Shown here one piece after another: positions 17,032 through 19,015 of a DNA stretch of 25,209 bases. A model generated the notes under the pieces. It worked only from the letters and a program-made list of their open reading frames with translations. It ran no database searches and was not told the DNA's origin. The translations under genes and the position numbers were made by a program. Position 1 is the stretch's first letter, and the number at the start of each line of letters is the position of its first letter. Location of the stretch: assembly GCA_016933575.1 (NCBI GenBank), contig JAFGAR010000032.1, positions 1 through 25,209 of the forward strand. Reading direction: 5' to 3'. The DNA comes from Candidatus Thorarchaeota archaeon. GTDB taxonomy: Archaea; Asgardarchaeota; Thorarchaeia; Thorarchaeales; Thorarchaeaceae.

Positions 17032-17838
17032 GTGGTTACATTGGAGACAGTGAATGCAATATCTCTATTGAGAGCAGATCATCAGGATGCTGAAATCCTC
17101 ACTAAGACATGCAAGAGAGCGTTTGATTCAGACTCAGAATATGGAGCTCCGGGACCTGGAGGACCACCTGACTATGATTCTGTCGAGTGGAATGCAAGTG
17201 CGATAATGAATAGATATCTGCAGTATTACAAGATTGTTATAGGAAATGATATCGTTGGAGGATTCATTGCAAGTGATAGAGGTCCAGGATATCAGGTATG
17301 TGAAAGGATTTGGATAGACCCAGATTATATGAGGCAAGGTATAGGCCAGAGGGTCTTTGGGTTGGTGGAAGAGCTGTATCCTTCAGCTGACCTCTGGGCT
17401 CTAGGAACTCCAGAATGGAATACGAGAACAAATCCATTCTATCAGAAAGTGGGTTTCGCCCAGATTGGTAGGACACATGATTATCCAACATGGAGTGGAA
17501 ATTATTACGAAAAGAGAATTTCAAAGGGATTCCCACAAGCCATATACACAATAGATAGACTTCGAAGAGGTCTGAATCAGGTTGTAGTAGAAGGACTTGT
17601 TTCTAAGATGTCTAGCCCTAGAACTGTTTCATCAAGAAAGACAGGTGAAACATTGAGGGTTGCAAATGTTTCTCTGAATGATGATACAGGATCAATCAAT
17701 CTTACGCTCTGGAATGATCAGATACGGCAAGTTGAGAAAGGAACAAGGATTCGAATTGAAAATGGCTATGTGAAGGAGTATAGAGATGATCTTCAATTGG
17801 GTGTTGGAGAATGGGGAATAATAATCACCTTGCTATGA
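17032..17838 (+). CDS. GNAT acetyltransferase fused to an SSB/RPA-type OB fold
   Basis: N-terminal GNAT (IWIDPDYMRQGIGQ, NPFYQKVGF); C-terminal OB fold (RVANVSLNDDTGSINLTLWNDQ...IRIENGYVKEYRDDLQLGVG). Confidence 0.85.
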   Translation: MVTLETVNAISLLRADHQDAEILTKTCKRAFDSDSEYGAPGPGGPPDYDSVEWNASAIMNRYLQYYKIVIGNDIVGGFIASDRGPGYQVCERIWIDPDYMRQGIGQRVFGLVEELYPSADLWALGTPEWNTRTNPFYQKVGFAQIGRTHDYPTWSGNYYEKRISKGFPQAIYTIDRLRRGLNQVVVEGLVSKMSSPRTVSSRKTGETLRVANVSLNDDTGSINLTLWNDQIRQVEKGTRIRIENGYVKEYRDDLQLGVGEWGIIITLL

Positions 17839-17864: not shown

Positions 17865-18590
17865 TTACATTTGGATGATTCCTTCAGCTTGAATTACTGT
17901 GTACCGATACTTCTGAGGGTCCACCTCAAGGACCTTCATCTTATCGACGTTGACGATGAAGATTCCTTGGATCTCTGAAGTTGCGAGTTCATCATACAAT
18001 ACGGGGGGAGTGAAGTATTGAGCATCGCACAACTCCTTCAGCTTGGCGAGTTCTTCATCATCTCTATGACCTACTCGCTCGAACATAGTATTGGGAATTT
18101 GTAAAACATGGTAGTGAGGAGTTGCTAGATAGAAGTAATGGCTGAATCCAGCATATCTAGCAATCTTCGCAGCAATTCTGGTCTTTCTATATGTACCAGG
18201 ATGAAGCGCGGCTTTTGGAGGAACAAAACCAGTCTCTACTTCAAGAACAAGAGTCTCTTCATCTTCATCTGTCCCATGCATTTCACTAAGGATTGCATCT
18301 TTTGCTTCATCGTTCCTATCAATTAATCTCTTTCTAACACCGAAGATATCGGCCATCAGTGTCCCACCATTTAAGGCGTACTCGATTTTGACTCTGTATC
18401 CATTCTCAATCAAGTGTTTTGCACAGAGGAACTGCATAATGCTATGATTGATCTTCACAAGACGTCTATGACTGAGCTCAACAAATCGCTCGCGAACATT
18501 TACTAATTCATTCATGACCTCAGGTAAAGTTGTTGGTTTCAATCGAGTCATTAACTCATCCATATCCCTAATGAAATGCTTCTTGGTCAT
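17865..18590 (-). CDS. Conserved archaeal protein with a PD-(D/E)XK-like nuclease fold
   Basis: HS...GYRVKIEY...ADIFG...LVLEVETG pattern (E...D...ExE), and KIARY. ATG at 18590. Confidence 0.7.
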   Translation of the reverse strand: MTKKHFIRDMDELMTRLKPTTLPEVMNELVNVRERFVELSHRRLVKINHSIMQFLCAKHLIENGYRVKIEYALNGGTLMADIFGVRKRLIDRNDEAKDAILSEMHGTDEDEETLVLEVETGFVPPKAALHPGTYRKTRIAAKIARYAGFSHYFYLATPHYHVLQIPNTMFERVGHRDDEELAKLKELCDAQYFTPPVLYDELATSEIQGIFIVNVDKMKVLEVDPQKYRYTVIQAEGIIQM

Positions 18591-18702
18591 CAAATGTCAC
18601 AACATCTGTTGATTCTATGAGTCATATTTTCCTCCCACCTAAGAGTCTGTCGATATCTATTCAAACGAGTGGAATATTGAAATATACAATGATTCGTTGA
18701 TT

Positions 18703-18718
18703 AGAAGAACTTATAACG
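18703..18718 (+). promoter_or_regulatory. BRE/TATA promoter of the putative ncRNA
   Basis: agaagaac (18703-18710) followed by TTATAACG (18711-18718); the TATA starts 28 nt before the first G of the terminal stem. Confidence 0.6.
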
Positions 18719-18738: not shown

Positions 18739-18963
18739 GGCCGTCGAGGAGTTCGCTCACGACAAGTGTACTCAGTCGATTCATGTTGAGTAACGCCACA
18801 GAGATGGTCTTTAGGTGGCGAAGCGACTAACACAGCATGACGAACTGACCATCCGCGAACAAGACTGAGCAGTAGACATCGATCAATAGGTGTTTATTGC
18901 GACTAAGATAGTCTTGTGAGTCGAGTAGGTATTGGACATTGTCGAGGCTTAGACTCGACGGCC
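18739..18963 (+). ncRNA. Putative structured non-coding RNA (225 nt), family not recognised
   Basis: Perfect terminal stem ggccgtcgag/ctcgacggcc, multiple internal helices with G-U pairs, promoter upstream, T-rich tract (ttcttgtgtttt) immediately downstream, no ORF in the track. Confidence 0.7.
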
Positions 18964-19015
18964 TTCTTGTGTTTTGGATACTATTCTATTTCAACTACCA
19001 GAAAATCACCATTCC

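What the first reader, a model, noticed from the sequence alone, without database searches (positions are those of the whole stretch)
18739..18963. Unannotated 225-nt structured RNA gene with its own promoter, closed terminal stem and candidate pseudoknots
Seen directly: a perfect 10-bp terminal helix (18739-48/18954-63); hairpins tactca/tgagta (18769-74/18787-92) and cgccac/gtggcg (18794-99/18815-20); a 12-bp G-U-rich helix gcagtagacatc/ggtgtttattgc (18869-80/18889-900) enclosed by acaagact/agtcttgt (18859-66/18910-17). The loop of the cgccac hairpin contains gatggtc (18803-09), exactly complementary to gaccatc (18847-53), which would form a pseudoknot. Further long-range options are ctcagtc/gactgag (18771-77/18863-69), gttcgc/gcgaac (18751-56/18855-60) and cgacaa-g-tgt/aca-ttgtcg (18760-69/18936-44). 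BRE+TATA lies 28 nt upstream and a T-rich tract follows immediately. The many G-U pairs favour selection on RNA rather than DNA structure. It lacks the hallmarks of tRNA, 5S, SRP helix 8 and a complete RNase P P4. Inference: a stand-alone ncRNA, possibly a new ribozyme or RNP scaffold class.
Basis: partly seen in the sequence, partly recalled or inferred. Interest (0 to 1): 0.88.

Follow-up and report, generated by a model that had tools for sequence, protein, structure and literature searches.

The report
New archaeal structured RNA with nuclease partner
The 225-base stretch is a real, previously undescribed structured RNA gene of Thorarchaeota, probably trimmed and closed into a ring, that sits next to an uncharacterised nuclease-like protein gene in two archaeal phyla, which points to an unknown RNA-protein machine.

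Summary
The finding holds. Window 18739-18963 (+) is an independent RNA gene with a conserved BRE/TATA promoter and a T-rich tail. It matches no Rfam family. A covariance model finds full-length copies in 48 of 87 genomes of the class, 0-2 per genome.

Across 51 sequences 89% of cells pair, against 28-39% when partners are slid. 53 of 62 pairs show changes on both sides. I found a second one (18883-88 with 18930-35).

The two ends form a bulge-helix-bulge-like handle: a 10-11 bp stem, a 3-nt bulge, a 4-bp helix, a 5-nt bulge, then a stem. One metatranscriptome contig from a close relative joins the 3' part to the 5' part within the two bulges or the 3 nt beyond them. This suggests excision and closure into a ring of about 198 nt.

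The upstream 242-aa ORF (17865-18593, -) has a PD-(D/E)xK fold and is predicted to form a symmetric dimer. It adjoins the RNA in 21 of 24 Thorarchaeia genomes that carry it. Its Bathyarchaeia homologues lie head-to-head with 133-229 nt RNAs that share the handle and one domain.

Function is unknown. This scan had already noted the gene pair at this same locus.

The parts
18703..18716 (+). Promoter: purine-rich BRE-like run (18703-09) and TATA-like box CTTATAA (18710-16), 23-29 nt before the RNA start
   Evidence: Sequence. An equivalent element sits at the same distance at all 51 homologous loci, including those directly downstream of the protein gene.
18739..18963 (+). Primary transcript (precursor) of the structured RNA, 225 nt
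   Evidence: Model R1 scores 196 bits over model positions 1-225. Conservation against the same-genus genome G004 starts at the promoter and stops about 15 nt past the RNA's 3' end.
18739..18764 (+). 5' half of the handle: P1 (18739-48), central 4-bp helix strand GAGU (18749-52), 5-nt bulge UCGCU (18753-57), P3 (18758-64)
   Evidence: Same geometry in the family: the 5' bulge is 5 nt in 44 of 51 sequences. P1 and P3 covary.
18940..18963 (+). 3' half of the handle: P3 (18940-46), central helix strand GCUU (18947-50), 3-nt bulge AGA (18951-53), P1 (18954-63)
   Evidence: The 3' bulge is 3 nt in 49 of 51 sequences. The motif GGCUUAGA is also conserved in Bathyarchaeia RNAs.
18755..18952 (+). Predicted excised and circularised core, 198 nt. 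Ends are placed by the canonical rule of cleavage after the second bulge nucleotide. The observed junction allows a shift of +1 to +4 nt at both ends.
   Evidence: A metatranscriptome contig of a relative matches 18920-18956 and then continues with the homologue of 18759-18788.
18781..18840 (+). Domain A: P5 (18781-88/18833-40), P6 hairpin (18790-99/18815-24) and the conserved joining strand GCGAYUAAGAC-like
   Evidence: P5 is 94% and P6 93% paired, with changes on both sides. The same domain occurs in Bathyarchaeia RNAs.
18803..18809 (+). Pseudoknot PK1, loop strand (GAUGGUC)
   Evidence: 98% paired, 4 of 5 pairs with changes on both sides. The alignment was not fitted to this pairing.
18847..18853 (+). 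Pseudoknot PK1, junction strand (GACCAUC)
   Evidence: The equivalent pairing also covaries in Bathyarchaeia.
18859..18917 (+). Domain B: P9 (18859-66/18910-17), asymmetric internal loop, P10-P11 (18869-80/18889-900)
   Evidence: Helices are 78-91% paired and every pair shows changes on both sides.
18883..18888 (+). Pseudoknot PK2, loop strand (UCAAUA)
   Evidence: 85% paired, 6 of 6 pairs with changes on both sides.
18930..18935 (+). Pseudoknot PK2, junction strand (UAUUGG)
18964..18977 (+). T-rich tract (TTCTTGTGTTTTGG), likely terminator
   Evidence: Conserved T-rich tails directly after the RNA at the homologous loci.
17865..18593 (-). Linked gene: 242-aa protein of an unnamed family, PD-(D/E)xK fold, transcribed divergently from the RNA
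   Evidence: No Pfam, NCBIfam or PADLOC hit. AF2 model pLDDT 84.5. VIA Z 9.2 to 3dnx (rmsd 2.6, 106 aligned) and 9.1 to XisH 2okf (rmsd 2.9, 115 aligned). D82, E118, E120 and K143 are invariant. Adjacent to the RNA across two phyla.

Best explanation
This is a dedicated gene for a structured non-coding RNA of a new family.

Shown: it is transcribed from its own archaeal promoter as a precursor of about 225 nt. The precursor folds into a terminal 'handle' (P1, 3-nt bulge, 4-bp helix, 5-nt bulge, P3) that carries a two-domain core locked by two loop-to-junction pseudoknots.

Inferred, about 0.6: the handle is a relaxed bulge-helix-bulge motif. It is cut in both bulges, most likely by the tRNA-splicing endonuclease EndA, and the core is ligated, most likely by RtcB, into a stable ring of about 198 nt. 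The conserved handle nucleotides GCUUAG and RCU then become the loop that caps P3.

Inferred from gene linkage, about 0.6 for physical binding and about 0.8 for some functional coupling: the RNA works together with the neighbouring PD-(D/E)xK-fold protein, a predicted symmetric homodimer. The protein recognises the handle, which is the only RNA part conserved in sequence between phyla. The RNA would then be its cofactor, regulator or substrate.

A second, unlinked paralogue and the RNA-only genomes show that the RNA can also act, or persist, without this protein.
For: Real RNA family:
- No Rfam hit.
- z -4.74 on the + strand.
- Full-length matches in 48 of 87 class genomes and in a second Asgard family.
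- 89% of cells pair against 28-39% when slid. 53 of 62 pairs change on both sides. 0 of 500 shuffles reach the observed values.
- PK1 is 98% and PK2 85% paired on an alignment not fitted to them.
- Promoter and T-tail are conserved at 51 loci.

Handle and ring:
- Constant geometry in 44-49 of 51 sequences.
- An RNA-library contig joins ...GGCUUAGACUC to ACGACAAG..., that is, 3' part to 5' part, with the join falling within the two bulges or up to 3 nt beyond them.
- None of the 21 metagenome contigs that contain the junction pattern carries the RNA.
- The genome has two EndA-family genes. RtcB is in 26 of 28 genomes of the genus.
- The EndA loop that gives broad substrate range is reported as conserved in Asgard archaea (PMC5829648).

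Protein link:
- Adjacent (<400 nt) in 21 of 24 Thorarchaeia genomes with a full-length gene, in divergent, co-directional and convergent arrangements.
- Adjacent in 17 of 20 named loci and in three more distant lineages.
- In Bathyarchaeia, homologues at 30-39% identity lie head-to-head with 133-229 nt RNAs that share the handle, domain A and PK1. This holds at 15 of 30 protein loci by model R2, plus one more by pattern.

Protein properties:
- PD-(D/E)xK fold.
- Invariant D82, E118, E120, K143.
- Homodimer model: score 0.68 against best control 0.00. The mark was reached by 20 of 30 proteins solved as pairs of one chain and 1 of 23 solved as single chains. The runs agree in at least 70% of contacts and the partner pLDDT is at least 78.
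Against: - The ring rests on one 151-nt contig of depth 3.2 from a relative, not this organism. Only 30 nt of its overhang were shown.
- The 5' bulge is 5 nt, not the canonical 3.
- With the bulge sequence of the four known close relatives, the junction fits a cut after the third bulge nucleotide (or up to 3 nt further) better than after the second.
- In Bathyarchaeia, RNAalifold prefers another fold of the handle.
- The group 2 RNAs have only a 3-bp central helix.
- The RNA occurs without the protein in many genomes. In this genus the RNA is in 18 of 28 genomes and the protein in 3 of 28.
- The protein occurs without a detectable adjacent RNA at about half of the Bathyarchaeia loci.
- The RNA was not found in several nearly complete genomes, so it is not essential.
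- No direct evidence of binding or catalysis.
- Related sequences inflate the shuffle controls.
Confidence: 0.55

Rival explanations
1. The RNA stays linear. The closed handle is only a binding platform for the dimeric PD-(D/E)xK protein or another protein, and the permuted contig is an artefact or comes from an unseen DNA rearrangement in a relative.
For: Only one low-depth contig supports the junction. The handle sequence is conserved beyond what a processing signal needs. In Bathyarchaeia an alternative handle fold with a small GA-rich internal loop is favoured. The predicted symmetric dimer would suit a near-symmetric helix.
Against: The join falls within the two bulges or up to 3 nt beyond them, and the two sides share only 3 nt, too little for an assembly chimera. 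No permuted DNA copy appears among the 64 matches listed or among the junction-pattern hits.
Confidence: 0.25
2. The pair is a toxin-antitoxin-like or nuclease-inhibitor module. The pseudoknotted RNA holds the PD-(D/E)xK nuclease inactive, and RNA-only genomes keep orphan antidotes.
For: Tight gene adjacency in variable orientation. RNA without protein is common while protein without RNA is rare in Thorarchaeia. Patchy distribution and variable genomic contexts of the RNA-only copies.
Against: No tandem RNA repeats as in type III systems. No PADLOC hit. The protein is a single-copy gene in about half of the Bathyarchaeia genomes sampled. The group 2 RNA sits in stable housekeeping synteny. This pattern looks more like a cellular function than an addiction module.
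Confidence: 0.1
3. The RNA is itself catalytic. It would be a self-cleaving and self-ligating ribozyme that makes its own ring, or a ribozyme acting on another substrate.
For: A compact fold with two pseudoknots and conserved joining strands is typical of ribozymes. A permuted junction exists.
Against: Few universally conserved unpaired nucleotides. No match to any ribozyme family even at E up to 10. Domain B is absent in Bathyarchaeia relatives. The cut sites lie in a motif that resembles a protein-enzyme substrate.
Confidence: 0.05
4. It is a mobile element: a MITE, or an intron-like element with a homing nuclease. The terminal helix would be its inverted repeats.
For: 10-11 bp terminal inverted repeat. 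Neighbouring nuclease-fold gene. Variable flanks among close species. Occasional tandem copies.
Against: One copy in this genome and at most two elsewhere. G-U pairs and covarying internal helices and pseudoknots act at the RNA level. Own promoter and terminator. Not found on viral contigs by pattern search. Stable synteny of group 2 across genera.
Confidence: 0.03

Closest known systems
Archaeal bulge-helix-bulge (BHB) substrates that yield circular RNAs: tRNA and rRNA introns, the tRNA-Trp intron C/D-box RNA, circular pre-16S/23S rRNA (PMC12558985), and the permuted SRP RNA of Thermoproteus (my own knowledge)
   Same: Stem, bulge, 4-bp helix, bulge, stem at the base of the released RNA. The EndA and RtcB genes are available in the lineage. 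A permuted 3'-to-5' junction was seen in an RNA library.
   Different: It is a free-standing gene with no host tRNA, rRNA or mRNA. The 'exons' are only about 16 and 11 nt. One bulge is 5 nt. The released part is a conserved double-pseudoknot RNA. A dedicated protein gene travels with it.
Structured RNAs encoded beside the nuclease or recombinase they serve: omega/reRNA of TnpB and IscB, bridge RNA of IS110 (my own knowledge; omega RNA circles in PMC12558985)
   Same: A pseudoknotted RNA of 130-230 nt lies directly next to a nuclease-fold gene. The pair is conserved while the flanks vary.
   Different: No transposon ends or multiple copies. The protein has a PD-(D/E)xK fold, not RuvC, HNH or DEDD. 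Both RNA ends are locked in a helix, so there is no obvious free guide segment. No variable guide-like region was identified.
tRNA-splicing endonuclease EndA (Pfam PF01974)
   Same: It acts as a symmetric dimer or tetramer on a pseudo-symmetric BHB. Its catalytic domain is usually placed with the PD-(D/E)xK-like folds (my own knowledge). The linked protein is a predicted symmetric dimer of that fold class.
   Different: No sequence or top structural match to EndA. The linked protein keeps the acidic D/E..E.E..K set typical of metal-dependent nucleases.
XisH (2okf, 2inb) and SPO1766 (3dnx), small PD-(D/E)xK proteins of unclear function
   Same: Best structural neighbours of the linked protein: Z 9.1 (rmsd 2.9, 115 aligned) and Z 9.2 (rmsd 2.6, 106 aligned).
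   Different: 13-17% identity. The archaeal protein has an extra N-terminal helical hairpin. No RNA partner is known for those proteins.
Type III toxin-antitoxin systems (ToxIN; my own knowledge)
   Same: A pseudoknotted RNA gene adjacent to a nuclease gene. Orphan RNAs are plausible.
   Different: No tandem short repeats. The RNA is long and has two domains. There is no defence-island context.

Membership tests
Any Rfam 15 family (including RNase P, SRP, tRNA, C/D and H/ACA RNAs, known ribozymes) | Score at or above the family's gathering threshold | tested here: not met
   No hit at gathering score in the window or in 7 related loci. At E up to 10 only chance-level hits appear, none covering the RNA. 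No tRNA or tmRNA. RNase P RNA (146 bits) and SRP RNA (92 bits) lie on other contigs.
Archaeal BHB-processed circular RNA | Two 3-nt bulges on opposite strands separated by a 4-bp helix and flanked by helices | tested here: inconclusive
   The 3' bulge is 3 nt in 49 of 51 sequences, the central helix is 4 bp in group 1, and flanking helices P1 and P3 are present. But the 5' bulge is 5 nt in 44 of 51 sequences, and group 2 has a 3-bp helix. This is a relaxed motif, not the canonical one. An alternative fold is possible in Bathyarchaeia.
Archaeal BHB-processed circular RNA | RNA molecules in which the 3' cut end is joined to the 5' cut end | tested here: inconclusive
   One RNA-library contig of a relative carries such a junction, within the two bulges or up to 3 nt beyond them. 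It is a single observation at depth 3.2.
Archaeal BHB-processed circular RNA | EndA and an RNA ligase encoded by the organism | tested here: met
   Two PF01974 genes in the genome. RtcB was not found in this 85.5%-complete assembly but is in 26 of 28 genomes of the genus.
Kink-turn (L7Ae-binding) motif in the handle | 3-nt bulge followed by tandem sheared G-A pairs, conserved across the family | tested here: not met
   Group 1 sequences could be drawn this way. Group 2 has AG instead of GA on the 5' strand, and the drawing would break the covarying P1 helix (read).
MITE or other DNA transposon | Many copies per genome, terminal inverted repeats with target-site duplications | tested here: not met
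   One copy in this genome and at most two elsewhere. The repeats covary with G-U pairs as an RNA helix does.
Riboswitch or other cis-regulatory leader | Fixed position in the 5' UTR of the regulated gene, on the same strand | tested here: not met
   It has its own promoter and terminator. It lies divergent, downstream or convergent to the linked gene, or far from it.
PD-(D/E)xK nuclease superfamily (for the linked protein) | Core alpha-beta fold with D ... (D/E)xK-type acidic and lysine residues | tested here: met
   Foldseek and VIA-align lists are dominated by PD-(D/E)xK proteins, best Z 9.2 and 9.1. D82, E118, E120 and K143 are invariant from Thorarchaeia to Bathyarchaeia. The lysine lies on a helix, not in the canonical ExK position. 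No Pfam family matches. Catalysis was not tested.
Type III toxin-antitoxin | Antitoxin made of tandem short RNA repeats processed by the toxin | tested here: not met
   The RNA is a single unit of 133-231 nt. No PADLOC match.

The most novel reading that the evidence does not exclude
The RNA and the PD-(D/E)xK-fold dimer form an ancient archaeal ribonucleoprotein enzyme of a kind not yet described. A circular, double-pseudoknotted RNA made through a BHB-like handle would direct, activate or restrain a restriction-endonuclease-fold nuclease. The system would be shared by Asgard archaea and Bathyarchaeia.
Probability: 0.3. Interest if true: 0.9.

Novelty: new variant of a known kind. Interest (0 to 1): 0.8.

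Why it matters
Well-supported new classes of large structured RNAs are rare, and rarer still in archaea. This one has two covarying pseudoknots and a conserved processing handle. It also has a conserved protein partner of unknown function, found in Asgard archaea (the closest known relatives of eukaryotes) and in Bathyarchaeia.

If the ring is confirmed, this would be a gene whose main product is a BHB-excised circular RNA, with no host tRNA or rRNA around it. That would be a natural template for expressing stable circular RNAs.

If the protein proves to be an RNA-dependent or RNA-controlled nuclease, it would add the restriction-endonuclease fold to the RNA-associated nucleases. It would also give a function to a protein family with thousands of unnamed members.

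Tried and rejected
- **Known RNA families.** Rfam at gathering score and at E up to 10, tRNA/tmRNA, RNase P and SRP RNA. It is none of these.
- **Protein libraries for the 242-aa ORF.** Pfam, NCBIfam, PADLOC and PDB sequence search gave nothing. Foldseek against PDB gave only weak PD-(D/E)xK rows.
- **Expression of this exact locus.** No RNA holder is listed. The two metatranscriptomes of the source study gave no cover of the window apart from the relative's contig.
- **Junction pattern in metagenome contigs.** 21 exact matches, none with the RNA, consistent with chance. This gave no further junction evidence and no permuted DNA copy.
- **Viral contigs.** Two 3'-end patterns gave 8 matches, none with the RNA.
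- **Rolling translation of the ring.** All three frames hold stops.
- **Kink-turn reading of the handle and of the domain B internal loop.** Not conserved.
Not conserved.
- **Neighbours of the group 2 RNA as hidden paralogues of the protein.** No similarity. They are FlpD, cupin, acyl-CoA dehydrogenase and HD genes.
- **Truncated copy in L078.** It is a masked stretch of N, not a real truncation.
- **Cross-phylum model searches.** R1 does not detect the Bathyarchaeia RNAs and R2 does not detect the Thorarchaeia RNAs. Their kinship rests on the shared handle, domain A motif, PK1 and the homologous neighbour.
- **Literature.** Searches found no description of this RNA or pair.

Full report
**What is there.** The window is contig C196 of a 3.47-Mb Thorarchaeota assembly, 85.5% complete. 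At 18739-18963 the + strand folds at -85.7 kcal/mol (z -4.74). The opposite strand gives z -3.14. No ORF of note covers it. It is not a tRNA. It matches no Rfam family at gathering score or at E up to 10. RNase P RNA and SRP RNA are on other contigs. The element is single-copy in this genome.

**Homologues and structure.** A same-genus genome holds an 80%-identical copy. Its similarity begins at the promoter and ends about 15 nt past the RNA. Three more copies were first seen only through their 3' ends. A covariance model built from five sequences finds full-length matches of 220-231 nt as follows:
- 18 of 28 genomes of the genus
- 48 of 87 genomes of the class, in 10 of 17 genera, with 0-2 copies each
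- a second Asgard family

On 51 aligned sequences 89.3% of cells pair, against 28-39% when the partners are slid. 53 of 62 pairs change on both sides. No shuffle out of 500 reaches the observed values. These sequences are related and the alignment was fitted to the model, so the shuffles overstate the case. The slid controls and the many pair types do not depend on that.

A scan for further covarying stacks recovered two pseudoknots. The other is new, between the distal loop (18883-88) and 18930-35. The model has no pseudoknots, so the alignment was not fitted to either. On it they are 98% and 85% paired, with changes on both sides in 4 of 5 and 6 of 6 pairs.

**Transcription unit.** A purine run and a TATA-like box lie about 23-35 nt upstream, and a T-rich tract follows, at all 51 loci. 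This includes loci where the RNA lies just downstream of the protein gene. It is an independent gene on the + strand.

**The handle and the ring.** The ends have a constant geometry:
- P1 of 10-11 bp
- a 3-nt bulge on the 3' strand, usually AGA (49 of 51)
- a 4-bp helix, GAGU with GCUU
- a 5-nt bulge on the 5' strand (44 of 51)
- P3

Each strand reads helix, 4 bp, bulge, helix, which is the layout of the archaeal bulge-helix-bulge motif apart from the longer 5' bulge.

I laid the two metatranscriptomes of the source study on the window. One 151-nt contig (depth 3.2, 90-95% alike, so from a relative) matched 18920-18956 and then ran on with 30 shown letters. Those letters match the family's 5' region from 18759 onward, with 3-5 mismatches to known members. 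The join therefore links the 3' side of the handle to its 5' side. The two sides share only CUC, too little for an assembly chimera. The cut could sit at four or five positions, from AG|A with NN|NCU to three nucleotides further on. With the bulge sequence of the known close relatives it fits a cut after the third bulge nucleotide (or up to 3 nt further) better than after the canonical second.

No DNA copy shows a permuted order. The genome has two EndA-family genes. RtcB is missing from this incomplete assembly but is present in 26 of 28 genomes of the genus. The EndA loop that allows relaxed motifs is reported as conserved in Asgard archaea (PMC5829648). I therefore read the RNA as a precursor from which a ring of about 198 nt is excised and closed. 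This rests on one contig and I give it about 0.6.

**The neighbour.** The ORF 17865-18593 (-) encodes a 242-aa protein with no Pfam, NCBIfam, PADLOC or PDB-sequence match. It has more than 3,100 unnamed relatives, all 'hypothetical', in Thorarchaeota, 'Promethearchaeota' and Bathyarchaeota. Its properties are:
- The AlphaFold model (pLDDT 84.5) has a PD-(D/E)xK core behind an N-terminal helical hairpin. The best neighbours are SPO1766 (Z 9.2, rmsd 2.6, 106 aligned) and XisH (Z 9.1, rmsd 2.9, 115 aligned), followed by AF1548, a type IIS enzyme and NucS.
- D82, E118, E120 and K143 are invariant from Thorarchaeia to Bathyarchaeia.
- A homodimer is supported by the model. The score is 0.68 against a best control of 0.00. 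The mark was reached by 20 of 30 proteins solved as pairs of one chain and 1 of 23 solved as single chains. The runs agree in at least 70% of contacts and the partner pLDDT is at least 78. The interface is symmetric and built from invariant motifs. This supports a dimer but does not show one.

**Linkage.** Clustering the ORFs around 41 RNA loci showed this protein next to the RNA in 15 of them. Across the class, 21 of 24 genomes with a full-length gene have an RNA copy within 400 nt. Most are co-directional, with the RNA about 50-150 nt downstream. Some are divergent, as here, and one is convergent. 17 of 20 named loci show the same, as do three more distant contigs.

The reverse does not hold. 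In this genus the RNA is in 18 of 28 genomes and the protein in 3 of 28. The RNA-only copies lie in varied contexts. A lower-scoring paralogue (group 2) sits in stable synteny with housekeeping genes across genera.

**Beyond the Asgard archaea.** A weak model hit beside a Bathyarchaeota homologue showed the same handle sequence on a 166-nt rod-like RNA.
- *The 13-mer.* In 201 Bathyarchaeia genomes the 13-mer GGCUUAGACUCAG occurs in 15, against 5 for the reversed control. The four occurrences that have a matching P1 all lie head-to-head with a homologue of the protein at 30-39% identity.
- *The protein and its neighbour.* The protein is a single-copy gene in 98 of the 201 genomes. At the 30 best protein loci, pattern search and a second model built from seven Bathyarchaeia RNAs find an adjacent, divergent RNA of 133-229 nt at 15 by the model, plus one more by pattern.
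- *What these RNAs share.* They share with the Thorarchaeia RNA the handle, the P5/P6 domain with its AAAC...GAAAG loop and GCGAYAAAGAC strand, and PK1, which covaries there too. They lack domain B, and one has domain A twice.
- *Rfam and handle fold.* None matches Rfam. RNAalifold prefers a different pairing of the handle in these RNAs, so the handle may switch, or the BHB reading may not apply there.

**Reading.** The RNA is real, new to Rfam and to the literature I could search, and selected at the RNA level. The gene pair is conserved across two phyla while orientation and flanks change, which argues for a functional link. The only part of the RNA conserved in sequence between the phyla is the handle, so the handle is the likely contact or cut site for the dimeric protein. 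What the pair does is not known.

I rank the readings as follows:
1. A ring-forming RNA that is cofactor, regulator or substrate of the nuclease-fold dimer.
2. The same, but with a linear RNA.
3. An inhibitor or antitoxin RNA.
4. A ribozyme.
5. A mobile element.

The first-stage scan had already noted the head-to-head pair at this same locus (e1-5518443). The tests here agree with that note and extend it.

Noticed in passing
window 17032-17838 (+): ORF fusing a GNAT acetyltransferase domain to an Ssb-like OB fold. A homologue of it also lies near the RNA in another genome of the genus, in the opposite orientation and without the 242-aa gene (locus L014, cluster c28).
   Followed up: no
L054:3824-4049 and L054:4350-4575: Two tandem copies of the RNA, about 300 nt apart, directly downstream of a 41%-identical homologue of the protein on a 655-kb metagenome contig. 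A called 101-aa gene overlaps the gap and the 3' end of the first copy.
   Followed up: partly
L159:2450-2678: A 229-nt Bathyarchaeia member that appears to carry domain A (P5/P6 with its pseudoknot strand) twice inside one handle, which suggests modular growth of the family.
   Followed up: partly
upstream of group 2 RNAs, e.g. L024:1455-1475: A conserved element, TGTGCA..CCA.CTCAGG, directly 5' of the TATA box. It is found only at the group 2 (stand-alone) RNA loci and may be a regulator binding site.
   Followed up: no
L143:958-1125 and L149:2325-2496: Bathyarchaeia members whose interior folds into a long, near-perfect rod (about -110 kcal/mol; a near-identical copy gave z -13) instead of the pseudoknotted domain, with the same handle and the same protein neighbour.
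   Followed up: partly
G050:C76:5680-6707: The only locus seen with RNA and protein gene tail-to-tail (convergent). With the divergent and co-directional forms, this makes three arrangements of the same pair.
   Followed up: no
window 18640-18654: A short block (TAAGAGTCTGTCGA) in the shared intergenic region is conserved with the same-genus genome while its surroundings are not. It may be a promoter or operator of the divergent protein gene.
   Followed up: no
own genome G000: No RtcB gene was found in this assembly although 26 of 28 genomes of the genus have one. The likely cause is incompleteness at 85.5%.
   Followed up: yes
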